Shown: positions 21,465-63,322 of the stretch, in pieces | Layout: each line of letters opens with the position of its first letter | How positions within the stretch are numbered: position 1 is the first letter of the stretch | Assembly: GCA_013426185.1 (NCBI GenBank) | Contig: CP058602.1 | Location: forward strand, 335,123 to 399,122 | Source: Candidatus Woesebacteria bacterium | GTDB taxonomy: Bacteria; Patescibacteriota; Microgenomatia; UBA8517 | Length of the DNA stretch: 64,000 bases | Reading direction: 5' to 3' | Made by a program: the position numbers and the translations under genes | Notes under the pieces: model-generated | Databases searched by the model: none | What the model saw: the letters and a program-made list of their open reading frames with translations, nothing else | What the model was told of the DNA's origin: nothing

Positions 21465-21731
21465 ATAACAATTAACAAATTAACAGTTAACAAATTAACT
21501 TAAAAATAGAACAAAGGGAAAATTACAAATTACAAATTCCAATATACAAACAATATACAAGTACCAATAAACAAATTACAAACAGATTATAGAATCTAGA
21601 TTTAGGATTTAAGATTTAAGAATTCCTGCTTCCTAATTACTACTTTCTACTTGCGTTTCTTTTACCTTTTACCTCTTGCCTTTTACCCTCTAGGAATTTT
21701 GCTTTCTACTTCCTGCATTCTACTTTCTACT
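21465..21731. repeat. Heptamer-repeat mosaic array A
   Basis: Runs of AAATTAC, GATTTAA, CTTTCTA and CTTTTAC; modules shared with arrays B-F. Confidence 0.85.
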
Positions 21732-21757
21732 GATTTTTGTGCTAAAATAACTTACTC

Positions 21758-21830
21758 GGCGCTATCGTCTAGAGGCCCAGGACGGCAGGTTCTCATCCTG
21801 CAAACCCCGGTTCGAATCCGGGTAGCGTCA
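21758..21830 (+). tRNA. tRNA-Glu (anticodon CTC)
   Basis: Acceptor GGCGCTA/TAGCGTC, anticodon arm GCAGG-TTCTCAT-CCTGC, T-loop GTTCGAATC; CCA not encoded. Confidence 0.95.
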
Positions 21831-21837
21831 CACAATA

Positions 21838-22181
21838 ACTTAAAACTTAAAACTTAAAAATCAAAAGTCAAAAAAAGTGGATTACAGATTACAGAATACA
21901 GATTAGAGAATAAAATTACAAATCCTAATATCTAAATTCCAAATTCTAATTTCTAAATCCTAAATTCTAAACAATTCTACAATGATCCAATTCCTCAAAT
22001 CACAAACAAATAAATCCCAACTTTGAACTTTTAATTTTGAACTTTGAACTCCTGAGGATAGATTTTGGATTATAGATTATAGATTATAGAATTTTGCTTT
22101 CTACTTTCTACTTACTACTTTCTACTTGCGTTTCTTTTACCTTTTACCTCTTGCCTTTTACCTATTATCATACTTGATACT
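21838..22181. repeat. Heptamer-repeat mosaic array B
   Basis: AAAACTT, GATTACA, AAATTCT, ACTTTGA, GATTATA, CTTTCTA and CTTTTAC modules. Confidence 0.85.
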
Positions 22182-22225
22182 AATCTCGGCCAGATTCGGC
22201 TAATTCCGACAGCTATATCTAGTCA

Positions 22226-24634
22226 TCAAGCCACAAGAACACTAGGAGAAAGATCGCGATTTTTCCCTGCAGCAATCTCTTTAAACGGATCTTTGATCAA
22301 AGCTAACTTTAGAACTTCGCGCATATCTTCTACAAAAACAAATTTTATGCTCTTTTTTACCTCGCTTGGCACATCATCCATATCCTTCTTATTACCCTTA
22401 GGCAAAATAATGGTCTTTAAGCCAGCTCGATACCCTGCAATAACTTTCTCTTTTACTCCGCCTATTTCCATCACTTTTCCACGAAGTGTAATTTCTCCTG
22501 TCATCCCAACTTCCTTCTTAACTGGAATACCAGTTAATGCCGATATCAAAGCTGTAGTTAAGGCAATACCAGCTGAAGGACCATCTTTAGGAACTGCTCC
22601 TTCGGGAACATGGATATGAATATCAGTTTTACTACCAAAATCAGGTTTCAAACCAAACTCTCGCCAATGAGATCTTGCCCAGCTGAAAGCGGCTTTAGCC
22701 GATTCTTTCATCACCTCACCAAGCTGCCCTGTCAGATAAAGCTTTCCTTTCCCGGGCATTAGAGCTACTTCAACAAAAAGAATTTCACCACCTGCTGCAG
22801 TTACAGCAAGACCAGTAACCACCCCAACCTCGTCTTTTTTCTCTGCCAACGCCGACGAAAACTTCCTTGGACCCAAAAACTTCCTTACCTCTCTAAGGCC
22901 GATCTTCTTGGGACATGGCTTTTTCTCAGCCACGCTTCTTGCAATTTTGCGACAAATAGTTGCAAGCATACGTTCAAGCTCACGAACTCCAGCTTCTTTG
23001 GTATATCTTTCTATAATTTCATCCAATGCCTCTTTGGTTAATTTAATCTTTTTGTCTTCAAGACCATGAAGTTTTAATTGCTTTGGCCACAAGAATTCTT
23101 CTGCAATCTTTTGCTTTTCGTTTTGGGTATAGCCTGGAAAGCGGATTATTTCCATTCTATCGCGTAATGGATCAATAATATTTTCTGCCACATTGCCAGT
23201 TGCGATAAACATTACTTTGGAAAGATCAAAAGGCACCTCAAGATAATGGTCAGAAAACTCCTTATTTTGCTCAGGATCCAAGGCCTCAAGAAGAGCAGAC
23301 GAAGGATCACCTCTAAAATCAACGCCCAATTTATCTATTTCATCAAGCATAAAAACTGGGTTTTTGGTCTTGGCATTCTTAATCCCCTGAATTATCCTGC
23401 CAGGCAGAGCACCGACATAAGTTCGCCTATGGCCTCTGATTTCTGCTTCATCACGAATGCCACCAAGAGAAACTCTGACAAAACTCCTACCCAAAGCCTT
23501 AGCTATTGAGCGGCCAATTGAAGTTTTACCCACTCCAGGCGGTCCAACAAAACAAAAAATGGTGGGTTGCGCATCTTGAGACTTTTTACCCTTCTTGATC
23601 TTCATAACCGCTAGATATTCAAGGATTCTTTCCTTTACCTTTTCAAGCCCGTAGTGGTCTTTTTTCAAAATAGAAGCCGCTTTTTTAATAGAGATATTAT
23701 TTGGAGACTCTTTGCTCCAAGGCATATCACAAAGCCAGTCAAGATAATTCCTAATATAGCCGCTTTCAGGATTTTGGATAGGCATCTGCATTAAACGCTT
23801 AAGCTCTTTCTGAGCTTTTTCTTCAACATCTTTGGGCATTTTTGCCTCTTTAATTTTCTTTTTATACATTTTTACCTCGTCCGAATCTAGCTCCGATTCT
23901 TCTTCTCCCAGCTCCTCCTCAATAGCACGTTTTTTCTCCCTTAACATTGCCCTCCTTACTTGATCCTCAAATTTCTTCTGGGTCTTTGAGCTTATACTTC
24001 TTTCAATTTCAAGAACATTAACCTCGCGCAAAAGAGCTTCAAAAACCGACCTCAACCTTTTAAGGAGCGAGGTTTCTTCTAAAAGTTTTATCCTTTCCTC
24101 GGTCGAGACCTCAAGCAAAGAAGCAACCTGATCGGCAAGCTCAACTGGGGTTGACTGTCCAGAGACAACCTTCATCACAGTAACTATTTCAGCCTGCTTA
24201 CCCAACTTAATTGCTCTTTTGAAAAGATCTACTATTCTTTTTGCCAAAGCATCTACTTCTGGAGAATCTTCTTTTTGTTCTTCAATTTCAATAACATCAG
24301 CTATCAAAAAAGGTTCTGTTTTGACCAAATTTTGGATTTTAATTCTTGCCTGACCGCGAACCAAGGCATGGACATCCTCTTCAGAAGACATCATCTGGGC
24401 AATCGTAGCAATAGTACCCACTTCGTAAAGATCTTTAAGTTTAGGATCCAACAGCTCGGGGTCTTTTTGAGTAAAAATAGCCACTACCCTCTGAGACTGA
24501 AAAGCATTATTAATAGCCAAAACCGACTTAGGCCTACCAAAAGAAAGAATATTATCGGTATGCGGAAAAACTACCGAATCTCGAATAGCAATTACTGGAA
24601 TTTGTCTTAAAACTTTAACTAATTTCTCGCTCAT
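22226..24634 (-). CDS. lon: ATP-dependent protease La
   Basis: LON N-domain, GPPGVGKTS Walker A, DEIDK, PKDGPSAG catalytic Ser; start ATG 24634. Confidence 0.97.
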   Translation of the reverse strand: MSEKLVKVLRQIPVIAIRDSVVFPHTDNILSFGRPKSVLAINNAFQSQRVVAIFTQKDPELLDPKLKDLYEVGTIATIAQMMSSEEDVHALVRGQARIKIQNLVKTEPFLIADVIEIEEQKEDSPEVDALAKRIVDLFKRAIKLGKQAEIVTVMKVVSGQSTPVELADQVASLLEVSTEERIKLLEETSLLKRLRSVFEALLREVNVLEIERSISSKTQKKFEDQVRRAMLREKKRAIEEELGEEESELDSDEVKMYKKKIKEAKMPKDVEEKAQKELKRLMQMPIQNPESGYIRNYLDWLCDMPWSKESPNNISIKKAASILKKDHYGLEKVKERILEYLAVMKIKKGKKSQDAQPTIFCFVGPPGVGKTSIGRSIAKALGRSFVRVSLGGIRDEAEIRGHRRTYVGALPGRIIQGIKNAKTKNPVFMLDEIDKLGVDFRGDPSSALLEALDPEQNKEFSDHYLEVPFDLSKVMFIATGNVAENIIDPLRDRMEIIRFPGYTQNEKQKIAEEFLWPKQLKLHGLEDKKIKLTKEALDEIIERYTKEAGVRELERMLATICRKIARSVAEKKPCPKKIGLREVRKFLGPRKFSSALAEKKDEVGVVTGLAVTAAGGEILFVEVALMPGKGKLYLTGQLGEVMKESAKAAFSWARSHWREFGLKPDFGSKTDIHIHVPEGAVPKDGPSAGIALTTALISALTGIPVKKEVGMTGEITLRGKVMEIGGVKEKVIAGYRAGLKTIILPKGNKKDMDDVPSEVKKSIKFVFVEDMREVLKLALIKDPFKEIAAGKNRDLSPSVLVA

Positions 24635-24645
24635 ATTTGTTGGTT

Positions 24646-24679: not shown

Positions 24680-24685
24680 GAGGTA

Positions 24686-25384: not shown

Positions 25385-25412
25385 ATCTAATTAATGATAA
25401 CATCTTAGAGGA

Positions 25413-39109: not shown

Positions 39110-39528
39110 GATTATAGAATAGAGATTATAGAGGAAAATTACAAATCACCCGCCTGCAAAAGCTATCGCCTTAGCGATTGCGGGCAGGTAAATCCCAAAC
39201 AGACAAATTCCAAATCACGAATTACAATATACAAATTCCAATTTCTAAATTCTAAATTCTAAACAATTTTACAATTATCCAATTTTCCAAATTACAAATT
39301 AAATTAAAACTTAAAAGTCAAAAGTCAAAACTTAAAATTAGTAGAAAGTAGTAAGCAGAAAGTAGAAAGGATAATACACAACTTTTAACTTTGAACCTTT
39401 AACTATATTGAATTATGAATTTTTGCTTTCTACTTACTACATTCTACTTTCTGCTTGTGTCTCTTTTACCTTTTACCCCTTCTTTTAACTATTAATCATA
39501 CTTGATTCTTGATTCGTGATACTTGATA
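39110..39528. repeat. Heptamer-repeat mosaic array C with an embedded 40-bp GC-rich hairpin (39149-39188)
   Basis: GATTATA, AAATTCT, AAAAGTC, AGTAGAA, ACTTTTA, CTTTCTA, CTTTTAC and CTTGATT modules, between convergent trmD and rmlD. Confidence 0.85.
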
Positions 39529-42784: not shown

Positions 42785-43562
42785 AATTCCAAGCCGGGTT
42801 TGGAATTCTATTGACAACGCGGGAAATTTCAATGAAGATATAAGTAAAACATGCCAATTCGAAAGATTCCCTTAAGGACCGGCTATATCTACCATATATT
42901 TAATCGAGGTATAAATCATGCTCCTATTTTCTACAGCAAAAGAGATTACCAAAGATTTACAAATCTTATAAGTTATTATCGCTGGGGTGATAATCCAGTA
43001 AAATATTCTCGTTTTCAGACTCTTTCAGATGAAATTAAAAATGAAATAAGACAAAACTCTAAAGAGAAATTGGTAAGTTTTATTTCCAACTGCCTAATAC
43101 CCAATCACTTTCACTTTGTCCTGCGTCAAGAGAAGGAAAACGGTATCAGCTATTTTGTTAACCGTTTCTTAGCAGCATACACAAAATTCTTCAACACCAA
43201 ATACAAAAGAAGTGGTCCGTTGTTTGAAAACAGATTCAAAGCTGTGCTAGTTGAAACTGACGAACAATTAATACACCTTGTAAGATATATCCACTTGAAT
43301 CCTTATTCTTCGGGAGTGGTCAAAAGCTTAAGAGGCTTATTGAGCTATCCATGGTCTTCGTTACAAGAGTATCTAGATCCTCAAGTCATAGGTATTTGTG
43401 ATGAAAAAGAAATGGTCTTAAAGCTTTTTAAAGATGACAGGGAAACTTTTAAAAAATTTACTTTAGACCAAGCAGAATACCAGAAAAGATTAGACAAGAT
43501 AAAGCATCTTATACAAGAATAAATCCCGCGTTGGCGTAGCTTTTCCAAACCCGGCTTGGAAA
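42785..43562 (+). mobile_element. RAYT locus bounded by inverted REP hairpins
   Basis: Left TTCCAAGCCGGGTTTGGAA-N9-CAACGCGGGA (42787-42824); right TCCCGCGTTG-N9-TTCCAAACCCGGCTTGGAA (43524-43561), conserved blocks are exact reverse complements. Confidence 0.85.
42851..43522 (+). CDS. REP-associated tyrosine (Y1 HUH) transposase, RAYT
   Basis: YHIFNRG, PNHFH (HUH), GPLFENRFK, YIHLNP (catalytic Tyr), YPWSS. Confidence 0.9.
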   Translation: MPIRKIPLRTGYIYHIFNRGINHAPIFYSKRDYQRFTNLISYYRWGDNPVKYSRFQTLSDEIKNEIRQNSKEKLVSFISNCLIPNHFHFVLRQEKENGISYFVNRFLAAYTKFFNTKYKRSGPLFENRFKAVLVETDEQLIHLVRYIHLNPYSSGVVKSLRGLLSYPWSSLQEYLDPQVIGICDEKEMVLKLFKDDRETFKKFTLDQAEYQKRLDKIKHLIQE

Positions 43563-47306: not shown

Positions 47307-50300
47307 CTATTTCTTTCCCCCGGAGCGAAACTTCCTTAAACCAAGGTAACCTGCAAAAAGTAAAACAGCGATTATTCCAACTGTCAATTTAGTTCTGTCT
47401 TTGGCAAATTTAACAGCCTGTCCCAAAACCCCTCCTTTTTCTTCCTCGGGAGCTTGAGTTGGTGAAGGAGTTGCCTCTTCTGTCTTCTCTTCTCCCAACA
47501 CCTCGCCAGTCGCCTTTTCTTTAGGCAAAATTTTAACTACTTCAGGAGTAGAAGTTGCAGAAACTGATGCTCCCAAAACTGATCCCGCCGAGACTTGAGT
47601 TTCAGGATCTGAAACGACAGATGAAGCATTGCCCGCCTTATCAATTGCTCTTATGGCAAAATAATATTCTTTTCCAGGAGCGGCAGCATTTTCTGAAGTC
47701 ATCTCGGTATCTTTTGATCCCCAGATGGTTGCTACCTCAGTTGAAGAATCAGCCGTGAAATTGGTACTATCCGAACGATAGATTATTACCTTGTCAAAAT
47801 CTTCATTGTCAGGGTTTCGCCAATAAAGCTTGTAGTGTCCATCCCCCAACTTTTCCTTCCTGTAATCGCGAACTGCATCGGGCGCTTGCCTGTCAACTAT
47901 AGTTGAAGTCTCGTCCTCGGCTGTTCCGCCATTAATTACAACCTTGAAGAAATATTTGCCATCTCCATTATAAAAATCACCGCCTGAAACCTGAACATAT
48001 CCTGACGCGCCAGTCAAAGCAGAACCCAAAGTTCTCCAAGACGAATCGCCATCTTTCTTTACATAAAACTGAGCTGAAATTGGATTTTCAGACAAAGCGG
48101 CGTATGAAATCTTAAAGTCTTCTTTATTGATATAGCTTGAAAGCTTGGTTATTGATACATAATCCGAGAAAGCCTTAGCAAAAGGAGCAAAAAGAGAAAA
48201 TACAAGAAGAAAAAGTATTGAGGCAAAAATATTCTTTAATCCTTTCTTGAAACGGCGATAATCAATCCAGTTTTTATTAAGAGCAAAACTGCCAAATTTA
48301 AGGAACAGACCAAAAATTAAAGCGGCAATAGCAAAGACAAAGAAGCGTGTATCAGAACCAGCAGCCGGCAAAACTTGACCCGCTTCAGTTGATGCCCCCA
48401 AGACCTGGCCTACCACTCCAACTCCTGTTGAGTAAGCTAGAACTTGCTTTAACTCAACTTGGGAGTTAACAGGCATGCCAGCATTACTTTCCACCCTCTC
48501 GCCACTCTCTGTATTCTCTGACACTGCCAAAACTTCAACTGGTTCAAAAATTCCTACTACCTCTTCGTTCCCTTCATGCTCATAAGGAATATAAACCCCC
48601 GTCGCAATAGCTATATTTGGATAGACTCCCGAAGTAAGGCTAGGATCAGACTTCATCTTATAAGTTAGAGTCTTTGTATCGCCTTTTTTTCCGGAAGCTT
48701 CAAGCGTGTCAATATACCATTCAAGATAACCAGAAAGCGCAGTTGGCGTGATTGGATTGCCTTCAAGCAGACCAGAACCATTAACATAGCTAAATCCACC
48801 AGCAGGAGCGTCCTTGATAGTTACACCTGTTAAGCGCTGATTGCCTGTATTTTTAATAACAAGAGTATAAATTACCTCGCTTCCTGAAGACAAAGGGCTC
48901 ACAGCGCTATTTGATTTAGTCAAAGAAAGGCCCAAAACAACCTTTAAATTACCAAAGTTGGCCTGAACATCTTTACCTGGATCTACTGTTACATTCTTAC
49001 AATTTCCTTCTGTTGGGTCTGTTGCTATCCACCCTTCGCTTAAAACCTCGCAAACTTGATAGTCGCCCGGAATAACATTGGCAAAAGAATAAGCACCATC
49101 CCCCCCCGTGGTCGTACTATCAATTTCGGTATCGCCCTGTTTTAACACTATTGTCCAACCAGGAAGTAAATTATTCTCATTTTCATCTCGAGATCCGTTG
49201 CCATTGATATCCTCATATTTATAACCAGAGATTGAACCTCTTTTGGTATTAGTAAAGGTACAAGTGACAGTTTCACCTGGTTCAACATTAAATGTGGCTG
49301 TTCGTGTAGAGGTGTTACCAATACTGTTTTCATCATCGCATGTTAAACTTGTCAAATCCCAACCTGTTTTTGCTGATTCAGTTGATGTATATTGATGACC
49401 TGGTAAGACTTCTGCTTTGAAAAGTGTGCCGTTATTTGAATTTATTGTTCCTGAGACATCACCAGTAAAGTCAAAACTGTCTGTACCGCCAACCATTATT
49501 TTTTTAACAATTATCTCTCCGTAATGAGAATTTATGAAAGTAAATGAATTTTTGCTTCCGCTTAACACCGTACCAAAATCATAAGTTGTTGGAGTAAGAT
49601 TTGTCCAACCTGTTTGTACTTCTTCGCTGACTGCATAACTTCCTGGACCAAGATTACTCCACGTATAACATCCGTCTTCACCGGTTGTTTTTGTATCTTT
49701 ATTATTAGTATCTCCATTTTTTATTAAACTTACGCTCCATCCTGAAATCGGCGTTTGGTCATTTGTTGTTTGTGTATCAGCATCAGCATCCTCTAATTTA
49801 CAAGCTTTAATTGAAACATTTTGAAAATTCCCAAAGTTGGAAATTGTTTGCTCACCCGCTACCACAGTAATTGAATTACATACAGGTGAAGTTAGACCAA
49901 CCCCGGGATCTGTATTAGACCAATCTGTTTGATTTATTTCACAGACTTTGTAGTTTCCTGGAACAATATTCATAAATGAATAATTGCCGTTTACATCAGT
50001 TGTTGTTGAAGCAAGCTCGGTAGTACCAGCTTCATCCATTAATTTCACTGTCCATCCGCTAAGGCCATTTTCTCCGTCATTTTTGACGCCATTTCCATTT
50101 ATATCGTTATATTTTATTCCAGCCACGGAACCTCTTTTGGTATTAGTAAAGGTACAAGTAACGTTCTCACCAGCAGCTAATTTTATGGTTGCTGATGGAG
50201 AGGTAGGTAAATTACTAGAAGAATCTTCGGTTGGATCATTGCAAGTTATATTAGTTAAATCCCAACCAGTTGTTGAATTTTCAGTTACAGTATAAGTTCC

Positions 50301-52517
50301 GGCAACCACATTGAAATTTTTTGAGTTTGGTAAAGTTTGATCATCGTCGTCATCTAAAGAAAAATTCCCTAAGTCTCCGGTAAATGAAAAGTCTTGAGGA
50401 TCGTTTGGTTGGGCATCTTTGACAATAGTAATTGTTCCTTGGTTGAGAGTGTTGGTGAAAGTACAAACTACAGAGTCCTCTGTATTACCACTTTTTCCTA
50501 TTTGAATTCCTGAAGCGCTTGTTCCGGTGCCGCTAAGATAGGAGGAACCGTTTTTAGTACAAGACCACTGGGTAGTATAGTTATTAAGATTAGTATTATT
50601 ACCCGCTGTTTCTGTGATTGTGTATGTCCCTAAGTCTACTGAATTAATTCCAGTTGATCCACTGCCAGAGACCGATAGATTAAGATTGGTTGGTCCGCTC
50701 ACAGCAAAATTCCAATTGGTGGAAGAATCATTTGGAACAACATCTTTAATTATTGTCAAACTTCCCTTGTCAGTACGAATAATGACACAGTCTGAAGGGT
50801 CAGAATTAGGTTGAGTTGAGGGATAAGAACAAACATCAAGTAAACTAGCAGAGCTCCCATTACCAATGTCAGCAAGATCTATAGAACAGGAAGCTTTAGT
50901 ATCATTCGGGGAGGAAGCACCAGCAGGAAAAGGATCATCGGCAGAATTTGTCACAGTGCAGCTACTCCGAGAAGGTGAGCCAATTAAAGTACTTCCGGCG
51001 CAACGGTCGGAACGAGTATCATTACAACTATACAAAGTGGGACTACCTGGGACCTGACTTTGACCATTGTTCCATGTAACACAAATTGCATAATTAGCTA
51101 ACCCATCATTATCTGTATCAAATAAAGCGCAAGCGTCAGCGGTATTTGAACCAGGCATAGAAGTTTCATCCCAGTTCCATGTGATTTCCAACGGATTATT
51201 TTGCGTTAAATTACGACAGAGCTTTGTTAAATCTTTTTGACCTGGCTCATCATTAACTCCTGCTGTGTCATTCACACAAGAGAAAGTTGGCGTAGGCGTA
51301 GGAGTTGGGGTAGAAGTTGGAATGGGAGTTGGACTAGCTTCAGTATAATCAACAATTAAATATATTTGAGTCACTATTGCTGTTTTATTCGCACTATTTT
51401 CAACACCAAACTTTACAGACCAACTATTAACTTCAGCTAATGTCCAAGCGGCTCCCGTAAACGGATTAGTTGGCATAACACGACTATACGTGGCATAACT
51501 CCCAGTAAGATTATTATCACTTCCAACACTTCTATCACCATCTGAAGGACCTTTTTCAACTAAAAGTTTTAACTTAGCGCCACCCTGACCTTCTTTGGCA
51601 ACAACATTTAGAGTCACAGAATTGATCGTTGCTCCGGCAGGAACACCCGCATTTGAAAAAGTAAACGATTGTCTTTGTCCATTACCACTATTCGTTATAT
51701 ATGTGGTGTCTCCATCATTTGTTGAAACTGCTGTAACTTTATCTCCGACATTTGCCGTCCATTGATCATAGTTAGCAATTGCTGTAGCTACAAGAGATGA
51801 ACTCAATGTATCCGTAAAACTCACTGAAGCAACAACTGTTCCTGAAGTATCTTTTACCTCAACCAAATAATTCGGCCTGTAGGTGCCGTCAAGTTGATAG
51901 GTGTAAAAAAGGCTACCTGACTCATCTGTGGTAACCCTGTCTGAAAACCTGAAATTACCAGTTTCAGAAGTAATTACCAATTCATACTCTGTATTTGGCA
52001 AAAAGCCACTTCCTGTTATTACAACCGCATCTGTCGGAGCATAATCAAACTTGTCAGTTTTCAAGGTTGCGCTGGTCGTCTCAATATAACTAAGATCAGG
52101 CTCTTCTATTTCTTCTGCATTGGTGTTGCCAAGAATAAAAGCGTTTAATTTAGCATTACTTTCCTCTTCTACTTTAGGGCTACTTTCAAGTTGAGGTGTG
52201 GAAGATTTCCCCAAGACATTTTCTTGGGGTTGATCTTTTACAGTTGCAGATGGAGAAGGTTTAAAAGTTGGTTCTAAAGTTGGAGTGAGAGTTGCTTCTG
52301 GTATCGGCGTATTATAGTTTGTTTGAGCATCTGATGTCGGCTCTACTGTTGGTTCAGCGGTTGGTTCTACTGTTGGCTCTGGCGTCATTTCAACAACTGG
52401 AGTTGGTTCTGGAGTTTCTTGGGCTAAGACAAGCAAAGGAGACCAAAAGGATATGGAGTTAACTAAAATAGAAAAGACAGATATTAAGGCAATTAACCTT
52501 CTTTTACTTTTATTCAT
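47307..52517 (-). CDS. Large surface protein: signal peptide, P/T linkers, Cys-rich domain, SpaA/SdrD-B (Cna-B-like) Ig repeats, DUF11-like domain, internal LPAAG sorting signal, second signal peptide, FN3-like domain, C-terminal TM
   Basis: Repeated CTFTN junctions and GxKYxDxNGNG...L.GWT motifs; LPAAG at 48357-48371; adjacent sortase gene. Confidence 0.85.
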   Translation of the reverse strand: MNKSKRRLIALISVFSILVNSISFWSPLLVLAQETPEPTPVVEMTPEPTVEPTAEPTVEPTSDAQTNYNTPIPEATLTPTLEPTFKPSPSATVKDQPQENVLGKSSTPQLESSPKVEEESNAKLNAFILGNTNAEEIEEPDLSYIETTSATLKTDKFDYAPTDAVVITGSGFLPNTEYELVITSETGNFRFSDRVTTDESGSLFYTYQLDGTYRPNYLVEVKDTSGTVVASVSFTDTLSSSLVATAIANYDQWTANVGDKVTAVSTNDGDTTYITNSGNGQRQSFTFSNAGVPAGATINSVTLNVVAKEGQGGAKLKLLVEKGPSDGDRSVGSDNNLTGSYATYSRVMPTNPFTGAAWTLAEVNSWSVKFGVENSANKTAIVTQIYLIVDYTEASPTPIPTSTPTPTPTPTFSCVNDTAGVNDEPGQKDLTKLCRNLTQNNPLEITWNWDETSMPGSNTADACALFDTDNDGLANYAICVTWNNGQSQVPGSPTLYSCNDTRSDRCAGSTLIGSPSRSSCTVTNSADDPFPAGASSPNDTKASCSIDLADIGNGSSASLLDVCSYPSTQPNSDPSDCVIIRTDKGSLTIIKDVVPNDSSTNWNFAVSGPTNLNLSVSGSGSTGINSVDLGTYTITETAGNNTNLNNYTTQWSCTKNGSSYLSGTGTSASGIQIGKSGNTEDSVVCTFTNTLNQGTITIVKDAQPNDPQDFSFTGDLGNFSLDDDDDQTLPNSKNFNVVAGTYTVTENSTTGWDLTNITCNDPTEDSSSNLPTSPSATIKLAAGENVTCTFTNTKRGSVAGIKYNDINGNGVKNDGENGLSGWTVKLMDEAGTTELASTTTDVNGNYSFMNIVPGNYKVCEINQTDWSNTDPGVGLTSPVCNSITVVAGEQTISNFGNFQNVSIKACKLEDADADTQTTNDQTPISGWSVSLIKNGDTNNKDTKTTGEDGCYTWSNLGPGSYAVSEEVQTGWTNLTPTTYDFGTVLSGSKNSFTFINSHYGEIIVKKIMVGGTDSFDFTGDVSGTINSNNGTLFKAEVLPGHQYTSTESAKTGWDLTSLTCDDENSIGNTSTRTATFNVEPGETVTCTFTNTKRGSISGYKYEDINGNGSRDENENNLLPGWTIVLKQGDTEIDSTTTGGDGAYSFANVIPGDYQVCEVLSEGWIATDPTEGNCKNVTVDPGKDVQANFGNLKVVLGLSLTKSNSAVSPLSSGSEVIYTLVIKNTGNQRLTGVTIKDAPAGGFSYVNGSGLLEGNPITPTALSGYLEWYIDTLEASGKKGDTKTLTYKMKSDPSLTSGVYPNIAIATGVYIPYEHEGNEEVVGIFEPVEVLAVSENTESGERVESNAGMPVNSQVELKQVLAYSTGVGVVGQVLGASTEAGQVLPAAGSDTRFFVFAIAALIFGLFLKFGSFALNKNWIDYRRFKKGLKNIFASILFLLVFSLFAPFAKAFSDYVSITKLSSYINKEDFKISYAALSENPISAQFYVKKDGDSSWRTLGSALTGASGYVQVSGGDFYNGDGKYFFKVVINGGTAEDETSTIVDRQAPDAVRDYRKEKLGDGHYKLYWRNPDNEDFDKVIIYRSDSTNFTADSSTEVATIWGSKDTEMTSENAAAPGKEYYFAIRAIDKAGNASSVVSDPETQVSAGSVLGASVSATSTPEVVKILPKEKATGEVLGEEKTEEATPSPTQAPEEEKGGVLGQAVKFAKDRTKLTVGIIAVLLFAGYLGLRKFRSGGKK

Positions 52518-53692: not shown

Positions 53693-54824
53693 TTTGTTTT
53701 TCTTCTTTCTTCTTTTTAGACTTAAAATAAGCATAACTTGCCGCTGACAAAAAAGAAAGACCCGCTATTATAAAAAAGACAGCCGCCAAATTAAAGTAAG
53801 AATCAGAGCCACTAGCTTCTTTATCCTCCTTTATCTTTGCTGATTCAAGACCCAAGACTCTTGGCTCAGACGAGGAATTTAGAGTTAACCCAGATTCACT
53901 GGCTTGGATAGTGTTTTCTGCCTCAAGAGAAGGGGTTGGCGAGGCCTTTGGAGTTGCTGAAGGCTTTGGAGTTGAGGTTGGAGTTGGAGTTGAAATAGTA
54001 AGAATAGGGGTTTCTTCATAATTATTACCCGCTGAAACATCAATCGTCTTGGTCCAACTCTTATAACCAGTTTTTTCAACTTTTATGGTATGGCTGCCAA
54101 AACCACAGGAGACTTTGTTTGAACCGCATTTGCAATCATCGCAAAAAGTATAAGTTTCAGGGGCATAATTGCCGGTATAATTTCCATCAATATAAATCTG
54201 TGTCGCGCCACTTACAACATTATCATTCTGATCTCTCGCGTCATTGATCTTCAAATTAGCCTTGGGTTTTTCAGGACTCTGTGCTGGCGTTGGTAAAGGC
54301 GTGGGAGAAGGAGTTGGAATGGGTAATGCAACATTTATCTTAAAAGCCTCTGCCTCACTAGAACCACTATAACTACCGCAGCTAGATGTAAAACGAAAAG
54401 CTTTGATTACATACTCTCCATTGGGCAAATCATTATTGTCTCCTATTTTAATATTCAAAACATATTCACCATCTGAAGTTATCTTAAAATATTTGTTACA
54501 TTGATTATTACTCTTGTCAGAAGATAAAGAATCAATCTTGACCCAATCCCCATCATTATCCTTCATATAACCAATATAAGAATTGCTGTTTTTAATACCT
54601 ACCTTGAAAAAAGAATCTCCCAAAGGTAGGGAATCGACCACAATCCTTACATCTATTACATCTTCTTTGGAATAAACCTGTACTGGTTCTACCTCTGAAA
54701 TATAAAAGTTAAAAGCAGACTGAACGGATTTTGTAAAGACAAAAAGAAAAAAAACAAGATTGATAGTCAATATTGTCAAAAATAAACTAGAGGATAATTT
54801 TGTTCTACCAGTAATAGCTATCAT
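53655..54824 (-). CDS. Exported, C-terminally anchored protein with PEGA-like domain and P/T linkers
   Basis: Signal sequence, IYIDGNYTG...GSHTIKVEKTGY (PEGA-like), C-terminal TM with basic tail. Confidence 0.75.
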   Translation of the reverse strand: MIAITGRTKLSSSLFLTILTINLVFFLFVFTKSVQSAFNFYISEVEPVQVYSKEDVIDVRIVVDSLPLGDSFFKVGIKNSNSYIGYMKDNDGDWVKIDSLSSDKSNNQCNKYFKITSDGEYVLNIKIGDNNDLPNGEYVIKAFRFTSSCGSYSGSSEAEAFKINVALPIPTPSPTPLPTPAQSPEKPKANLKINDARDQNDNVVSGATQIYIDGNYTGNYAPETYTFCDDCKCGSNKVSCGFGSHTIKVEKTGYKSWTKTIDVSAGNNYEETPILTISTPTPTSTPKPSATPKASPTPSLEAENTIQASESGLTLNSSSEPRVLGLESAKIKEDKEASGSDSYFNLAAVFFIIAGLSFLSAASYAYFKSKKKKEEKQNENKDSEDQEDF

Positions 54825-54919
54825 AGATTCTCAATCTCAGATTTCCTAAGGAAAAATCTATTTAAATATCCTTCCCAAAAAAACAAAAAATCAAAAATTT
54901 AGCCTCGTTTGTATCAGCA

Positions 54920-55247
54920 CACTAAAATAAGTATCAAGTATCACGAATCAAGAATCAAGTATTAAGAATAGTTAAAAGTTAAAAGTTCAAAGTTGGAATT
55001 TATTTGTTTGGAATTTGTGATTTGTAATTTGGAATTTGCCTGCCCGCAATCGCTAAAGTGATAGCTTTTGCAGGCGGGGAATTTGGAATTTTGATTTTTT
55101 CCCTTTGTTCTCTGTTCTTTGTTCTAATCTAGTAGGTAAAAGGCAAGAGGTAAAAGGTAAAAGAAATTCAAATAGAAGGCAAAGGATTTCAGATATCAGC
55201 TATCGGATATCAGATATCGACTGTCAACCTTTGGCTATCAGATATAA
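54920..55247. repeat. Heptamer-repeat mosaic array D with an embedded 40-bp hairpin (55039-55078)
   Basis: GAATCAA, AAAAGTT, GGAATTT, TTGTTCT, GGTAAAA and GATATCA modules; largely reverse complements of modules in A-C. Confidence 0.85.
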
Positions 55248-55331: not shown

Positions 55332-56408
55332 TTAATAAAAAAGAGTAATTTTTGAACTCCTTGCTATTCTATGGTTCCACCAGTTATAGATCTCTTTCAA
55401 ACTAGCCTTTTTTACCAATGCAATTTTCTCACTCATTGAGAGAATATTAGTAGTTTCCCATTCTAGTTTCTGAATAATTTTGTCTTCTAGCTTTATTATT
55501 ATGTTTTTATTTTTTTCTTCCAACTCTTGTATAAGCTTTTGCCTTGTAGCCTCAAAGACGTATCTATTGCGAGGAGGATTCTTTGCTACTTTTTCAACAA
55601 CATCTAGAAATGACTGGCAATCCTTCGAGTCAACCAGAGAAAAAAAGGTCGAAAAAATTTGAGGTGTAAAATCTTTGTTCATTTCTAGTTGGCAACTATA
55701 GGAAATCCCTTCCTGTCTTATTTTTTTTTCTACTTCTTCTTTAATAATTCTCGAAATGAAAACTAGCTTATAAGCATCTATGACTGAATGAATCGGAACC
55801 TTGATAGAATAGGCGGGATAAATAAGTTTCTCCCTAGGATAAGAATAAATATCATCAATCATTGTGTCCTTGTTTTCAATCTTCCCTTTACCAAACCTAT
55901 TAGCTACAGTATAGATTAGCATCTTAAGTTCTTTAGCAAGAGATGTGGGTGCATATATAATGGAATGTGTTAACTTGATATTTTTTAAAATCTCATCCTT
56001 TTTAGAAAAAGACAGGTTTCTTTCTATTAGCTTTAAGTGTCTTAGAAGAGAACTTTTGTTTTTTTGTTGATATTGAATTAGATTGTGAATCAGCCATCGG
56101 TGCCCTCCTATAGACGATAGTGCTTCTAAAACTATTCTTTTTTTCTCTGCCACTATATCTTCAACTGAGATTCTTCTTAGAAGAAGAACATCCGAAAGAA
56201 ATTCTGGCTCTACTTTATTTCCCACAGCTACCTTAAGTATGCCCGACCCCACCTTTCCATTTTTCTTGCATTTGTCATCCAGAGAACGAAAAAATAGATG
56301 TTCATAAAGATGAGCATATAGGTAGTTAGCCTGTTGATAGTTGAAAAACAGACTTAAAACAAAGTCTCTACTTAAACCTTTTTGGGGTATAATCTTGATA
56401 TCCGGCAT
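55332..56408 (-). CDS. Divergent M16 (insulinase-like) metallopeptidase
   Basis: HLYEH matches the inverted zincin HxxEH; C-terminal IRQEGISYS resembles the M16 R/Y motif. Confidence 0.65.
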   Translation of the reverse strand: MPDIKIIPQKGLSRDFVLSLFFNYQQANYLYAHLYEHLFFRSLDDKCKKNGKVGSGILKVAVGNKVEPEFLSDVLLLRRISVEDIVAEKKRIVLEALSSIGGHRWLIHNLIQYQQKNKSSLLRHLKLIERNLSFSKKDEILKNIKLTHSIIYAPTSLAKELKMLIYTVANRFGKGKIENKDTMIDDIYSYPREKLIYPAYSIKVPIHSVIDAYKLVFISRIIKEEVEKKIRQEGISYSCQLEMNKDFTPQIFSTFFSLVDSKDCQSFLDVVEKVAKNPPRNRYVFEATRQKLIQELEEKNKNIIIKLEDKIIQKLEWETTNILSMSEKIALVKKASLKEIYNWWNHRIARSSKITLFY

Positions 56409-57109: not shown

Positions 57110-57420
57110 CACTAAAACAGACATCAAGTATCACGAATCAAGAATCAAGTATTAAGGATAGTTAAAAGTTCAAAATTAACTTGGAATTTGTAATTTTAAC
57201 TGTTGTAATCCGTGATAAGGACGGACCTTGTCACCCCCCTTTAAAGGACAGTCCTTTAAAGGGTCCAACTCTAAACTCAGTATTTATTATCTTGTATTAT
57301 GTATTATGCAGGGAATACAAGTAGAAAGTAGAAGGTAGTAAGTAGAAAGCAAAATTCTTAAATCCTAAATCATAAATCAAGATTCTATAATCAAGGTTTT
57401 GACTTTTAAGTTTTAAGTTT
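57110..57420. repeat. Heptamer-repeat mosaic array E with two embedded palindromes (57212-57234, 57237-57263)
   Basis: GAATCAA, GTATTAT, AGTAGAA, AAATCCT and TTTTAAG modules. Confidence 0.85.
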
Positions 57421-57426
57421 CTAATG

Positions 57427-58596: not shown

Positions 58597-58605
58597 TTTA
58601 GAATA

Positions 58606-59523: not shown

Positions 59524-59525
59524 AC

Positions 59526-60185
59526 TTATGAAAGGCTAATAACTTTAGTTTTAATTTTACTTCCTTTTTCAACTTTAGTATATTTCTCAACCAAATTTAA
59601 ATGATGAGTTGCCATTATGACCAGCTTCCCTGATTCTGCAACCTTTTTAAACACCCCCATAATCCCTTCCGAAGTTTCCCAATCAAGGTTGCCTGTTGGC
59701 TCATCAGCCAAAAGCATTTCAGGGTTAACAACCAAGGCTCGCGCCAAAGACACTCTTTGAAGTTCTCCTCCTGAAAGCTGAAGTGGAAAAAGTTCGCTCC
59801 TTTTTTCAAGCCCTACCATCTTTAAGACGTCGTCAACACGACTGTCCCACTCAGATGAAGGAACGCCAACAATAGCAAGAGCAATTTCAACATTTTCTCT
59901 TACCGTCTTTTCCATCAAAACTTTAAAATCCTGAAAAACAACACCAACTTTTTGCCGATATGAAGATATCTGGCTGCCCTTAAAAGAAAAGATATCCTCA
60001 CCCTTAAATAAAATCCTACCTGTGTCAGGAATTATTTCTCTTAAGATTAATTTAAGAAGAGTGGTTTTGCCAGACCCAGAGCGGCCGGTGATAAAGACCA
60101 ACTCACCGGAACTGGCTTCGAAAGAAACTTTATTCAAGGCGACTATATCGCCATAAGTTTTGCTAACATCAATTACCTCAAGCAT
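59526..60185 (-). CDS. ftsE: Cell division ATP-binding protein FtsE
   Basis: GRSGSGKTTLLKLI, GVVFQDFK, LSGGELQRV, ADEPTGNLD, MATH. Confidence 0.9.
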   Translation of the reverse strand: MLEVIDVSKTYGDIVALNKVSFEASSGELVFITGRSGSGKTTLLKLILREIIPDTGRILFKGEDIFSFKGSQISSYRQKVGVVFQDFKVLMEKTVRENVEIALAIVGVPSSEWDSRVDDVLKMVGLEKRSELFPLQLSGGELQRVSLARALVVNPEMLLADEPTGNLDWETSEGIMGVFKKVAESGKLVIMATHHLNLVEKYTKVEKGSKIKTKVISLS

Positions 60186-60235
60186 TATCTTTCAGATTAC
60201 TAAATTTTTGAAGTCTTAACAAGAAGTAAAACTAA

Positions 60236-60260
60236 ATTGACAAGGTCCGTCCTTGTCAAT
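60236..60260. repeat. REP-like palindrome ATTGACAAGGTCCGTCCTTGTCAAT
   Basis: Reverse complement of the 16226-16246 copy. Confidence 0.75.
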
Positions 60261-60267
60261 CCTATAA

Positions 60268-60756
60268 TTAATCAAGCACTTTGACTTTACCCACATCCAT
60301 CAGCCAACCAGCCTTGGCGCCTTTAATAGTCTCGCCCCAAACCTGCACATTTTTACCCACAAAAGAATCAAGATCAATAACAGACGAGGTTAAGTAAACA
60401 TACTGGGAAGGCCCTCCATCCCGCTCCAAGTGGTGCGTCCCTTCTCCGTTAATGCCCCCCTCTTTCATAAGTCCTTGAGCCGTATCCCTGAAAGTTTTTT
60501 CATCAGAAATTCCGGCTTCTTTTTTAGTTTGAGTTACATTAGTTCCTGTAACTTTTTCTTGTGTTTTCCCATTTTGCGCTCCTGAAAGCAGCCACCCAGT
60601 CAAGACTCCAAACCCCACAACAACTACAGCAACAATCACCATTACCAAATTTTTAGAACCCGAGGTATTAAATTTGCCCACAAGAGGTTTTTTCTCAACT
60701 TCAGAAGTCGTATTTTCAATAGGCAGTTGATTATCTACCCTATTTTCCTCTTCCAT
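60268..60756 (-). CDS. Single-pass membrane hypothetical protein
   Basis: TM followed by a small beta-rich domain (GEGTHHLER...YLTSS...GWLMDV). Confidence 0.75.
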   Translation of the reverse strand: MEEENRVDNQLPIENTTSEVEKKPLVGKFNTSGSKNLVMVIVAVVVVGFGVLTGWLLSGAQNGKTQEKVTGTNVTQTKKEAGISDEKTFRDTAQGLMKEGGINGEGTHHLERDGGPSQYVYLTSSVIDLDSFVGKNVQVWGETIKGAKAGWLMDVGKVKVLD

Positions 60757-60790
60757 AATAATGACACTTTAGCCTACCTAAAAATAAAAT

Positions 60791-61873
60791 TCAAGTAGCA
60801 AGAGACAATATTTCAGCTTCAATAAATTCATCTATTTCTCCATTTAAAACTGCCTCTGTATTTGAGGTTTCAACATCCGTCCTTAAATCCTTAACCATTT
60901 TATAAGGATGCAGAACATAACTTCTAATCTGATTACCCCATGAAGCAGGCCTATATTCACCCTTAATTTCCTTGACCTCTTTACTTTTTCTTTCCTCCTC
61001 AAGAGCCCAGACCTTGGCGCGCAAAAGCTCAAGAGCTATCTTCCTATTCTGCTCCTGGAATCTTTGAGTCTGACAAGAGACCACTATCCCTGTTGGGATG
61101 TGTTTGACACGAACTGCTGTTGAAACCTTTTGGACATTTTGCCCACCTTGGCTTGACGAGCGGAAAAACTGCCATTCAAGATCTTCATCTTTGAGGTTGA
61201 TATAAGACTCATCTACATCGCCAATCTCAGGCAAAACTCCAACCAAGGCAAAAGAAGTCTGACGCAGGCGGTCTGCATTAAAAGGAGATTGCCTCACCAA
61301 GCGATGCGTACCGCTTTCACCCTTTAAATAACCATAAGCATAAGACCCAACCACCTTGAAAGTAACACTTTTTATTCCAGCCTCTTCCCCCTCGGTCAAA
61401 TCCAAAGTCTCCACCTTGAAGTTCTTCCTTTCAGCATATCTTAAATACATCCTGTAAAGCATACTGGCCCAGTCCATTGCTTCTGTCCCACCTTGGCCTG
61501 CATGTATCGAAACAATGGCATTGCCACTATCATATTTTCCAGAAAGAAATGAGGCCAATTTCAGCTCTTTTAGTCTCTCCTCAAGAGAAGAGATATCTTT
61601 TTCAAAGATCTCATCATCTTTACTTTCTTTGACCAAATCAAGAAGAATCAAAACCTCATTCTCAAAAGACTCAAGTTTATCTATTAAATCACGAAGACTG
61701 CCAATTTTTTGCATTACTGACCTTGCTTTTTCCTGATCATTCCAAAAATCAGGGTCCAAAGACTGAGCTTCAAGCTCCTTAAGTTCTATTTTCTTCTTCT
61801 TGATATCAAGAGATTTTTTAATCTCCTCCAAAGAATCTTTTATAATCTCGGCTCTTTGCTTAATTTCAGGCAT
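60791..61873 (-). CDS. prfB: Peptide chain release factor 2
   Basis: SPF tripeptide, GGQ motif, WGNQIRSYVLHPY; continuous ORF. Confidence 0.97.
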   Translation of the reverse strand: MPEIKQRAEIIKDSLEEIKKSLDIKKKKIELKELEAQSLDPDFWNDQEKARSVMQKIGSLRDLIDKLESFENEVLILLDLVKESKDDEIFEKDISSLEERLKELKLASFLSGKYDSGNAIVSIHAGQGGTEAMDWASMLYRMYLRYAERKNFKVETLDLTEGEEAGIKSVTFKVVGSYAYGYLKGESGTHRLVRQSPFNADRLRQTSFALVGVLPEIGDVDESYINLKDEDLEWQFFRSSSQGGQNVQKVSTAVRVKHIPTGIVVSCQTQRFQEQNRKIALELLRAKVWALEEERKSKEVKEIKGEYRPASWGNQIRSYVLHPYKMVKDLRTDVETSNTEAVLNGEIDEFIEAEILSLAT

Positions 61874-61876
61874 AAT

Positions 61877-62347
61877 TTAGGGTTTACAAATTTCAGCTTT
61901 TACTTTTTCTTTATCGCTTTTACTTAGACTAAAAAAGAGCTTAATTAAAGTCTCGGAAGCTGATTCCTTCGCTTCTGAAGTCTTAATTTCTACGCTTTCA
62001 CCCAAAACTTGAGCTAATCTATTTCTTCCAATATCAAGAAATGTTGAAATGGGCTTTGGCGGATTTTTCCAACCTAAAAGCTCAGTAAACATAGTGCGAC
62101 CAGCAAGAATAAAAAATCCCTCTACAATCAAGGCTACAATAAACCCCCAAACAAAAATAGCAATCGAATTCTTGCCCAAGCTCCAGCTAACAAACATATG
62201 CCGCACTCGAGCCAAAGACAAAAGCAAAAGAAATATCAAAAAAAGTATCAAACCTGCCTGAAAATAAGAAGCACTAAAGTCAATTTTACCAATGCGATAG
62301 GTAAAATCATTCCTGTAAAAAAGCGAGCTTAAACCCGAAAAGTTCAT
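61877..62347 (-). CDS. Membrane hypothetical protein
   Basis: Two TM segments, then a VLGES linker and short C-terminal helix. Confidence 0.7.
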   Translation of the reverse strand: MNFSGLSSLFYRNDFTYRIGKIDFSASYFQAGLILFLIFLLLLSLARVRHMFVSWSLGKNSIAIFVWGFIVALIVEGFFILAGRTMFTELLGWKNPPKPISTFLDIGRNRLAQVLGESVEIKTSEAKESASETLIKLFFSLSKSDKEKVKAEICKP

Positions 62348-62374
62348 AATCTCATATTATCACAAAATATAAGT

Positions 62375-63022
62375 TTAAAGAGAAGTGGTAGGAGTTGGAG
62401 AAGAGGTTGGTTTAGCAGTTGAAGTAGGTTTTGGTGTTGCTGAAACCTTGGGAGTCTGACCTGACCTTAAGCCAGTAATTATTTCTACATCATAGCTGGT
62501 CGACGAGCTTTTCTTTGTTTCTACTTTCTGATAGATTTTTTCTAACTCTTTTGTTATTTCACTTACCGCGCTAGACGAAAGGCTTGAAGAAAAAGTTACC
62601 TGAGTTGATTCATAATCTTGCTTTGCCGCATTACCAACTTTGACAGAAGTATAGCCAAGACTATTTAATCTATCCTGAAGATAAGCTGCCTCGCCTACTA
62701 TCCCCGTACCATTTAAGACTTGTATTGACACTGATTTTTTATCCACTACTTCAGCTGGAGTGGGCGTGGGAGTAGAAGTAGAAACACTCTCTTCTTCTAT
62801 AATCATAGGCGCTTCTGTTCTAGTAGGGCTCTCTGTTCTACTTTCCTGCTTATTTCTCAAGGAAAGAAAATAAAAAACTCCCCCTCCAACCAAGACCAAA
62901 GCAATTAAAAGTAAAATTAAACCAACTGTTTTCTTGTCCCTTTTTGAAGATGGCCGAGACATTTGTCCTGAACTCAAAGGAGAGGAAACTGGTTGTTGTT
63001 CTTCAAGCTGATTTGGACCCAT
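62375..63022 (-). CDS. LytR C-terminal domain protein with P/T linkers
   Basis: TM, then IQVLNGTGIVGEAA...LGY...VGNA...DVEIITG. Confidence 0.85.
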   Translation of the reverse strand: MGPNQLEEQQPVSSPLSSGQMSRPSSKRDKKTVGLILLLIALVLVGGGVFYFLSLRNKQESRTESPTRTEAPMIIEEESVSTSTPTPTPAEVVDKKSVSIQVLNGTGIVGEAAYLQDRLNSLGYTSVKVGNAAKQDYESTQVTFSSSLSSSAVSEITKELEKIYQKVETKKSSSTSYDVEIITGLRSGQTPKVSATPKPTSTAKPTSSPTPTTSL

Positions 63023-63085
63023 GGTAAACGAAATATATAAAGAAAAAAGCGTTTTGTCAAATTTTGTCCCAAAGAATGCCTTACG

Positions 63086-63322
63086 AAATTATAAATTCGA
63101 AATCCTAAATTTTCTAAATTACAAATTACAAGCTCCAAATTACAAATTACAAATTCCAATATACAAACAATATACAAGTAATAAACAAATTACAAACAAA
63201 TTAGGAACACTGAACTTAGTATTATGAATTATGTATTATGCAGAAAAATACATTGTTCCCATAATACATAATACAAGATACTAGATACAATCTTGCAATA
63301 TGGTTCCAAACCCGGCTTGGAA
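63086..63322. repeat. Heptamer-repeat mosaic array F ending in a RAYT-type REP (63304-63322)
   Basis: 44-bp block identical to array A (63137-63180 = 21520-21563), GTATTAT modules, TTCCAAACCCGGCTTGGAA. Confidence 0.85.

What the first reader, a model, noticed from the sequence alone, without database searches (positions are those of the whole stretch)
21465..63322. Six intergenic mosaics assembled from a shared library of heptamer-repeat modules
Seen: arrays A 21465-21731, B 21838-22181, C 39110-39528, D 54920-55247, E 57110-57420 and F 63086-63322. Each is a concatenation of 20-60 bp modules of 2-6 degenerate 7-mers, reused in different order and orientation. Examples: AAATTAC block (21520-21563 = 63137-63180, 44 bp identical); CTTTTAC block (A, B, partial in C, inverted at 55135-55163); CTTTCTA block (A, B, C, inverted at 57319-57356); ATCAAGTATCACGAATCAAGAATCAAGTAT (D, E, inverted at the end of C); AAAACTT/AAAAGTC (B, C, inverted in E); GTATTAT (E, F). 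Copies keep the same internal degeneracies, so they were copied as units rather than made by local slippage. REP hairpins sit inside C, D, E and F. Inference: an undescribed combinatorial repeat system, either accreted footprints or landing pads of mobile cassettes, or protein-binding arrays. From recollection, similar 7-mer runs flank four-helix-bundle (IVS-protein-like) genes in CPR genomes, but no such gene is in this window.
Basis: partly seen in the sequence, partly recalled or inferred. Interest (0 to 1): 0.82.

Follow-up and report, generated by a model that had tools for sequence, protein, structure and literature searches.

The report
Polar heptamer mosaics as recombination hubs
The six repeat patchworks are real and belong to about 75 such arrays in this tiny-genome bacterium; they are built in one fixed direction from the 7-base-repeat arms that flank a small four-helix-bundle gene, they sit at gene-order breakpoints, and they are likely reshuffled by ordinary recombination with one another rather than by a dedicated enzyme.

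Summary
Confirmed, with one correction. The six arrays belong to a family of 74 merged arrays (23.9 kb) in this complete 819-kb CPR genome. Modules are not freely inverted: 157 of 157 shared 18-mers in the window, and 97.6% of shared-15-mer pairs genome-wide, fit whole-array flips. Order follows a narrow grammar (58 of 240 junction types; 165 when shuffled). Most modules match the inverted arms of four-helix-bundle (PF05635) gene cassettes elsewhere in the genome; upstream arms lie 5', downstream arms 3'. Nearby inverted arrays share long exact blocks, also in a congener. Arrays mark synteny breaks (19/65 vs 30/482), including one gene inversion and two block swaps. A 96-97% identical strain keeps D but has E rebuilt around another gene. 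Best reading: cassette-arm debris, spread and shuffled by RecA-type recombination, working like Neisseria NIME arrays. Against a four-helix-bundle driver: mosaics occur without the gene, and sampled gene-rich relatives lack them. A RAYT-like gene in the window has its hairpin at the end of array F. No reads were available. Earlier notes of this scan found the family, the arm link and the inversion, in this genome and others; nine paper searches found no description.

The parts
21465..21731 (-). Mosaic array A (canonical direction on the - strand), between greA and tRNA-Glu
   Evidence: 78% tiled by exact blocks of 20 bp or more from 7 other arrays; the congener G001 has a different array here
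21758..21831 (+). tRNA-Glu(CTC), a resident gene bracketed by arrays A and B
   Evidence: also in G001 and G002 at this junction
21838..22181 (-). Mosaic array B, between tRNA-Glu and lon
   Evidence: 69% tiled, 6 donors; folds no better than shuffles, z -0.15
39110..39528 (-). Mosaic array C between convergent trmD and an rmlD-like gene; abuts the rmlD stop codon
   Evidence: 70% tiled, 7 donors; gap 423 bp here, 3 bp in G001
39149..39188 (.). G+C-rich hairpin inserted in a module of C; same family at 55039-55078 in D; 6 of 6 genome copies lie at arrays
42787..42805 (.). REP-like hairpin upstream of the RAYT-like gene
42851..43522 (+). RAYT-like Y1 (HUH) nuclease gene, 223 aa; one of three in the genome; vertically kept in G001 (64%)
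   Evidence: PF01797 over cut-off; NF047646 47.6 bits, below its cut-off of 80
43543..43561 (.). REP-like hairpin downstream of the RAYT-like gene; identical (19/19) to 63304-63322 at the end of array F
   Evidence: both further genome copies lie at arrays
54920..55247 (+). Mosaic array D
   Evidence: 70% tiled, 9 donors; nearly unchanged in strain L283 (one more heptamer)
55332..56408 (-). 358-aa accessory ORF between the same-direction arrays D and E; no Pfam or NCBIfam family; not found in G001 or in the joined 400 kb of G002
   Evidence: other cargo at this site in G002
57110..57420 (+). Mosaic array E; shares its first 82 bp with D at 88%; replaced in strain L283 by a different mosaic enclosing a 127-aa ORF
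57212..57263 (.). Two hairpins inside E; the first is a one-mismatch copy of the REP that flanks another RAYT-like gene (G000 C1:1121-1825)
63086..63322 (-). Mosaic array F between a LytR_C-domain gene and an FKBP gene; G001 holds about 2.6 kb of other DNA between REP-like hairpins at this junction
63217..63284 (.). Upstream arm + short spacer + downstream arm of one four-helix-bundle cassette type: inferred collapsed (gene-less) cassette
   Evidence: arms match those of the gene at G000 C1:740491-740865 (20 and 19 bp exact); this junction occurs 23 times among 516

Best explanation
The arrays are polar patchworks of the heptamer-repeat arms of four-helix-bundle (PF05635) gene cassettes plus inserted REP-type hairpins, and they are likely spread and reshuffled by RecA-type recombination and gene conversion between arrays, which would also move and flip the genes between them. 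Step 1 (shown as a match, inferred as history): cassettes made of upstream arm, gene and inverted downstream arm recur at the same junctions with different arms, leaving stacked arms; loss of the gene would join an upstream-arm stack to a downstream-arm stack. Step 2 (inferred): any shared module is a crossover or conversion point, and only same-direction homology can pair, so polarity and a few ancestral junctions are kept while paths are reshuffled. Step 3 (inferred): short chance or leftover heptamer seeds are converted and grown from donor arrays, mostly near ones. Step 4 (shown as association): crossovers between arrays give inversions, block swaps and cargo exchange. No function of the arrays for the cell is required.
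For: Arms: 6 of 7 own cassettes have flanks made of array modules (background 38 of 2791 windows), exact matches up to 30-32 bp; 50 of 89 relatives' cassettes have inverted arms, 4 direct. Five cassettes sit at the same junctions in G000 and G001 with proteins 43-56% identical against 59-88% for neighbours; four of the five have clearly different arms. Polarity 97.6%, 93% in G001. Grammar: 58 of 240 junction types, 165+/-4 in 1000 shuffles, yet 66 of 68 arrays are distinct paths. Five upstream-arm modules lie at mean position 0.14-0.30, eight downstream-arm modules at 0.51-0.93 (perfect separation, 1/1287). Window arrays are 68-78% tiled from 5-9 donors. Best partner within 15 kb for 24 of 74 arrays (3.9 expected), 20 of them inverted, p=2e-4; repeated in G001, p=0.003. 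Breakpoints: 19 of 65 array junctions vs 30 of 482 others (20/54 vs 34/455); a gene between inverted arrays sharing 168 bp is flipped against G001, and all six breakpoints of two block swaps are arrays. An in-frame tract inside a gene has a 50-bp exact match to an array 245 kb away, where G001 has a short seed. Strain L283: E rebuilt, 13 of 14 junctions already in the G000 grammar. recA found and mutS not found in 5 of 5 genomes.
Against: No reads, so no crossover was seen in action. Leading-strand bias in G000 (51 of 74) is not predicted and did not repeat in G001 (15 of 31). Crowding on one replichore (52 of 74; 28 of 31 in G001) is unexplained beyond local copying. Upstream and downstream arms in arrays mostly come from different families, which simple gene deletion does not give. 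Arm side rests on 18 of 89 relatives' loci plus the own cassettes, with one contrary locus each for two modules; one 5' module could not be assigned. Module hits across the class lay beside a PF05635 gene in only 1 of 49 loci, many being short tracts inside genes, so modules could also arise without cassettes. Breakpoint excess may partly reflect tolerance at operon borders (only partly controlled). An order-10 Markov null comes close to the observed block length (50-57.5 vs 63). recA/mutS status does not separate array-rich from array-poor relatives.
Confidence: 0.68

Rival explanations
1. An enzyme assembles or moves the modules: the RAYT-like Y1 nucleases cut at REP hairpins and carry neighbouring heptamer DNA along (BIME/REPIN-like), or the four-helix-bundle protein itself promotes copying of its arms.
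For: Three RAYT-like genes, each with its own hairpin; both further copies of the window RAYT's hairpin and 6 of 19 copies of another lie at arrays, which with margins cover 5% of the genome. The cargo gene of strain L283 follows a REP hairpin inside the array, as does its G001 homolog. Leading-strand bias in G000. The protein family has a weak match to the retroelement accessory protein Avd.
Against: Most arrays hold no RAYT-cognate hairpin (8 of 74). G002 has mosaics but no PF05635 match, while 200-kb samples of three relatives with 5-11 matches show none. No reverse transcriptase in the genome. Strand bias absent in G001. One filled/empty pair showed no clear target duplication.
Confidence: 0.18
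2. The arrays are selected protein-binding or RNA-processing elements (terminators, stabilisers, RNase III sites, nucleoid-protein pads) at operon borders.
For: Positions are partly shared with G001 (13 of 36 syntenic array sites vs 1 of 97 non-array gaps of 60 bp or more). Array ends often abut stop codons (35 of 68 within 15 bp). C folds better than shuffles (z -2.75).
Against: Sequence is not conserved in the congener (81 of 5705 20-mers); 23 of 36 orthologous sites are empty there and 15 of 16 in G002; E is wholly rebuilt in a 96-97% strain; B does not fold; modules also sit in frame inside genes.
Confidence: 0.1
3. Independent local slippage from A+T-rich seeds, with convergence on favoured heptamers.
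For: Single-unit gains occur (D in L283). The same heptamer families appear as solo tracts across the class (100 of 251 genomes).
Against: Shared 18-mers 157 vs at most 82 under unit resampling; exact blocks up to 172 bp spanning several modules; fixed polarity and junctions.
Confidence: 0.04

Closest known systems
Neisserial intergenic mosaic elements (NIME arrays; PMC1797815, passages read)
   Same: Intergenic arrays of many reused modules, positions roughly shared between genomes but content dynamic, foci of inversion and proposed recombination substrates, with opportunistic insertion of other repeats.
   Different: NIME units are spacers bracketed by one conserved 20-bp inverted repeat (dRS3) that a phage recombinase can target; here the modules are tandem heptamer tracts joined directly, in one direction, and traceable to the arms of a gene cassette.
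BIME / REP with RAYT (PMC2817692, passages read)
   Same: Modular intergenic mosaics; RAYT-like genes flanked by inverted hairpins that recur inside the mosaics, including hybrids from two RAYTs.
   Different: BIMEs are built of regularly alternating REPs; here hairpins are minority inserts and the bulk is heptamer tracts.
S23p / PF05635-encoding intervening sequences (Coxiella IVS, PMC4990558, passages; CPR rRNA insertions, PMC11270868, passages; structure 2GSC)
   Same: Same protein family; heptamer repeats upstream of the ORF in Coxiella; one cassette of this genome lies in the 16S rRNA gene.
   Different: The six arrays carry no ORF and their two halves do not pair; the passages read describe no gene-less mosaics.
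Bacterial heptamer tandem repeats (Xanthomonas and Nostoc, PMC4692102, passages; Beggiatoaceae, PMC4679880, abstract and term search; STRR of cyanobacteria, name recalled)
   Same: Period 7, intergenic, often in inverted pairs, origin unexplained.
   Different: One or a few unit families each, not 16 families concatenated under a grammar.

Membership tests
NIME arrays | One conserved short inverted repeat bracketing every spacer | tested here: not met
   De novo clustering gives directly joined tandem modules with no universal bracket
NIME arrays | Syntenic positions with variable content | tested here: met
   13 of 36 vs 1 of 97 sites in G001, different sequence; E rebuilt in L283
NIME arrays | Foci of rearrangement | tested here: met
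   19 of 65 vs 30 of 482 junctions
NIME arrays | Raised divergence of flanking genes | not tested
   Only ortholog presence was compared: 15 of 69 vs 199 of 654 lack one, no excess
BIME / REPIN-RAYT | Regularly alternating REP pairs as the building unit | tested here: not met
   RAYT-cognate hairpins at 8 of 74 arrays, not regularly alternating
BIME / REPIN-RAYT | Cognate RAYT gene flanked by the same hairpin | tested here: met
   the protein scores below the NF047646 cut-off, so RAYT-like only
BIME / REPIN-RAYT | RAYT cleaves next to the hairpin | not testable with these tools
   Needs an in vitro assay
PF05635 (S23p) intervening-sequence cassette | Four-helix-bundle ORF between the arms | tested here: not met
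   No PF05635 match in the window
PF05635 (S23p) intervening-sequence cassette | Arms of cassette type | tested here: met
   6 of 7 own cassettes map to modules, up to 30-32 bp exact
PF05635 (S23p) intervening-sequence cassette | Ends pair into one long stem | tested here: not met
   B z -0.15; C folds through internal hairpins; A, D, E, F not folded
PF05635 (S23p) intervening-sequence cassette | RNase III excision from RNA | not testable with these tools
   No RNA reads were available
MITE | Fixed length, terminal inverted repeats, target-site duplication | tested here: inconclusive
   66 of 68 arrays are distinct paths with varied ends; target duplication looked at by eye only; the sub-element at 63217-63284 is MITE-like
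Heptamer simple-sequence repeats / STRR | Tandem 7-base units in excess | tested here: met
Heptamer simple-sequence repeats / STRR | Explained by local unit expansion alone | tested here: not met

The most novel reading that the evidence does not exclude
The arrays are a recombinase-free, integron-like gene-exchange system: polar heptamer mosaics, seeded by four-helix-bundle cassettes, are kept because they let the population capture, swap, flip and reorder genes at dozens of sites, with RAYT nicks at embedded hairpins starting the exchange. The same cassette arms would be the source of the unexplained heptamer repeats of many bacteria.
Probability: 0.2. Interest if true: 0.82.

Novelty: new variant of a known kind. 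Interest (0 to 1): 0.52.

Why it matters
About 3% of a streamlined CPR genome is a polar repeat scaffold that marks 19 of 49 gene-order breaks against a congener. It ties the unexplained excess of bacterial heptamer repeats to a named, uncharacterised gene cassette, and it gives a testable route by which tiny genomes without detected mismatch repair reorder and exchange genes. It works like NIME/BIME mosaics, so the principle is known; the make-up, polarity and origin were not found in nine paper searches (open-access library only, supplements not examined).

Tried and rejected
Free module inversion: rejected. Pure slippage: rejected. Whole array as an RNase III-type stem: not supported for B. 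Known RNA family: only tRNAs in the window. Retroelement (Avd/RT) route: no PF00078 match in the complete genome. Replication-strand rule: seen in G000, not in G001. Four-helix-bundle gene as present-day driver: neither needed nor sufficient in samples (200 kb each of G010, G012, G019, G026, G033, 600 of 803 kb of G002). Modules as markers of PF05635 genes across the class: 1 of 49 (own-genome and G001 hits and one G002 locus overlapping another were dropped before the count). Loss of mutS as the cause of expansion: not found in any of 5 genomes, rich or poor. Arrays preferentially flanking orphan genes: no (5 of 25 short inter-array segments hold a gene without a G001 ortholog). The cargo ORFs have no family. 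Read-level variation and transcription could not be examined and stay open. No structure or complex prediction was run.

Full report
Setting. The window is G000:C1:335123-399122 of a single-contig 818,817-bp genome, 37% G+C, rated 100% complete. A homolog of one window protein is named from a Microgenomates-group bacterium. The label Woesebacteria comes from earlier notes of this scan and was not tested here.

The quoted identities are exact. The six share 157 18-mers; resampling 7-mer units within tracts gives 21 on average and at most 82 in 500 trials. They are not special to the window: a de novo scan finds 83 fragments covering 23,855 bp, 74 arrays after merging. The longest exact block shared with another array has a median of 63 bp, against 29 and 42 for order-6 and order-8 Markov nulls; the order-10 null, trained on the same arrays, reaches 50-57.5.

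Polarity and grammar. One orientation per array explains 97.6% of shared-15-mer pairs genome-wide and 157 of 157 shared 18-mers in the window: A, B, C and F read one way, D and E the other. Among 16 core modules, 516 junctions use 58 of 240 possible types (165+/-4, minimum 153, in 1000 order shuffles), yet 66 of 68 longer arrays are distinct paths. Each window array is 68-78% tiled by exact blocks of 20 bp or more from 5-9 other arrays.

Where the modules come from. Seven PF05635 genes pass the cut-off, none in the window, one inside the 16S rRNA gene. Each is flanked by inverted heptamer arms. Six of seven map to array modules (background 38 of 2791 windows), with exact matches up to 30-32 bp; the block at 55135-55163 is the downstream arm of the gene at C1:654633-655007. 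In relatives, 50 of 89 cassettes have inverted arms and 4 direct. Five cassettes occupy the same junctions in G000 and the congener G001 but are 43-56% identical, against 59-88% for neighbours, and four have clearly different arms: repeated replacement or fast turnover. Modules that are upstream arms lie at mean relative position 0.14-0.30 (five modules) and downstream arms at 0.51-0.93 (eight modules); perfect separation has chance 1/1287. The assignment rests on few loci (18 of 89 plus the own cassettes), two modules have one contrary locus each, one 5' module is unassigned, and two modules that are mirror copies of 5' modules were left out. So an array reads like a cassette without its gene, but with arms of different families on the two sides. 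One junction type (23 of 516; window 63217-63284) joins the two arms of a single family over a short spacer and looks like a collapsed cassette (inference).

Signs of recombination. The most similar partner lies within 15 kb for 24 of 74 arrays (3.9 expected), and 20 of these 24 are inverted; near inverted pairs share 0.065 of 30-mers against 0.015 by permutation (p=2e-4), and same-direction pairs under 3 kb share only 0.005. G001 repeats the inverted excess (0.082 vs 0.026, p=0.003). Against G001 (median protein identity 72%), 19 of 65 junctions with an array break collinearity, against 30 of 482 without (20/54 vs 34/455 by a looser rule). These include a transporter gene between inverted arrays sharing 168 exact bp that is flipped, and two block swaps whose six breakpoints all carry arrays. 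Direction of change is unknown without an outgroup, some breaks are paralog noise, and operon-border tolerance is only partly controlled (tandem junctions: 10 of 31 vs 19 of 368). A tract inside a gene (C1:285294-287033) is in frame, longer than the short seed in G001, and matches an array 245 kb away over 50 exact bp. recA was found and mutS was not in 5 of 5 genomes.

Turnover at the window's own sites. In G001, C is absent (gap 3 bp vs 423), A and B are replaced by other arrays, and F holds other DNA. Overall 13 of 36 syntenic array sites carry an array in G001, against 1 of 97 non-array gaps of 60 bp or more, but only 81 of 5705 G001 array 20-mers occur in G000 arrays, against 2720 within G001. 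A strain 96-97% identical (L283, the only close one among 3 loci) keeps D with one extra heptamer, while E is rebuilt in the same direction around a 127-aa gene; 13 of its 14 junctions are in the G000 grammar and its blocks match G000 arrays elsewhere by up to 69 bp.

Hairpins and RAYT. Three RAYT-like Y1 genes exist, one in the window (42851-43522), each between its own hairpins (below the NF047646 cut-off). The window gene's hairpin ends array F (19/19); both of its further copies, and 6 of 19 copies of another RAYT's hairpin, lie at arrays. Two other hairpin types occur only at arrays (14 of 14 and 6 of 6). Hairpins are therefore enriched but are a minority component.

Results against the reading. 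Module hits across 250 class genomes lay within 200 bp of a PF05635 gene in 1 of 49 loci; many look like short tracts inside genes. G002 has no PF05635 match yet 3 mosaics in 600 kb, and 200-kb samples of three relatives with 5-11 matches have none: the gene is neither needed nor sufficient today. The leading-strand bias of G000 (51 of 74) is absent in G001 (15 of 31), and both crowd arrays on the shorter replichore (52 of 74; 28 of 31) for reasons not settled. No reads were available, so activity and transcription are open.

Mechanism. Shown: identity of modules with cassette arms, polarity, grammar, local inverted sharing, association with breakpoints, remodelling between strains. Inferred: arm stacks left by cassette replacement founded the arrays; homologous crossovers and conversion at shared modules shuffle them, keep polarity, seed new sites and rearrange genes; near direct pairs are purged by deletion. 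Confidence 0.68. Rivals: enzyme-driven assembly by RAYT or the four-helix-bundle protein (0.18), selected regulatory arrays (0.10), slippage alone (0.04).

Comparison. It works like Neisseria NIME arrays (PMC1797815, passages) and partly like BIMEs with RAYT (PMC2817692, passages) but fails the defining unit of each. Heptamers upstream of an S23p ORF are noted for the Coxiella IVS (PMC4990558, passages), PF05635 ORFs in CPR rRNA insertions in PMC11270868 (passages), and unexplained intergenic heptamers in PMC4692102 (passages) and PMC4679880 (abstract; no hit for the four-helix terms searched). The protein matches structure 2GSC and weakly Avd. Nine searches showed no description of such mosaics; subscription papers are not covered and no supplements were opened. 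Earlier notes of this scan report the family, the arm link, fixed order, strain variation and the inversion for this genome, and the arm link for other genomes; I reached the arm link and the inversion before reading the notes on each, and the strain comparison was prompted by one. Verdict: real, new variant of a known kind, interest 0.52.

Noticed in passing
   Followed up: yes
window 55332-56408 (-): 358-aa orphan ORF with an HxxEH stretch near residue 33-37, recalled as the metal-binding motif of M16 peptidases; no Pfam/NCBIfam match; 6 homologs only.
   Followed up: partly
L283 3915-4298 (-); G000 C1:62456-62824: 127-aa cargo ORF without family; homologs in G000 (65%, apparently interrupted), G001 (48%, behind a mosaic and a REP hairpin) and G002.
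   Followed up: partly
G000 C1:774194-774556: PF05635 cassette inside the 16S rRNA gene, also in G001; G000 seems to hold a second, ORF-less insertion just downstream that G001 lacks.
   Followed up: no
G000 C1, ori about 644,000, ter about 179,000: Unequal replichores (354 vs 465 kb); arrays crowd the shorter one in both G000 and G001.
   Followed up: partly
L167-L222: Across the class the same heptamer families appear as short tracts apparently inside coding genes (read by eye).
   Followed up: partly
G002 C1 about 488,470-489,300: At the D/E junction G002 holds a different small gene (TrpR-like by recall, not tested) between two copies of a perfect palindrome; G001 has a RAYT-type hairpin there.
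   Followed up: no
G001 C1:6551-6709 region: Arms of this broken PF05635 gene have period 10 and resemble a 10-base module at the 5' side of many G000 arrays.
   Followed up: no
window 47307-52517 (-): 1736-aa ORF matching G001 only at its two ends; L283 also diverges sharply at window 54318-54879 next to array D.
   Followed up: no
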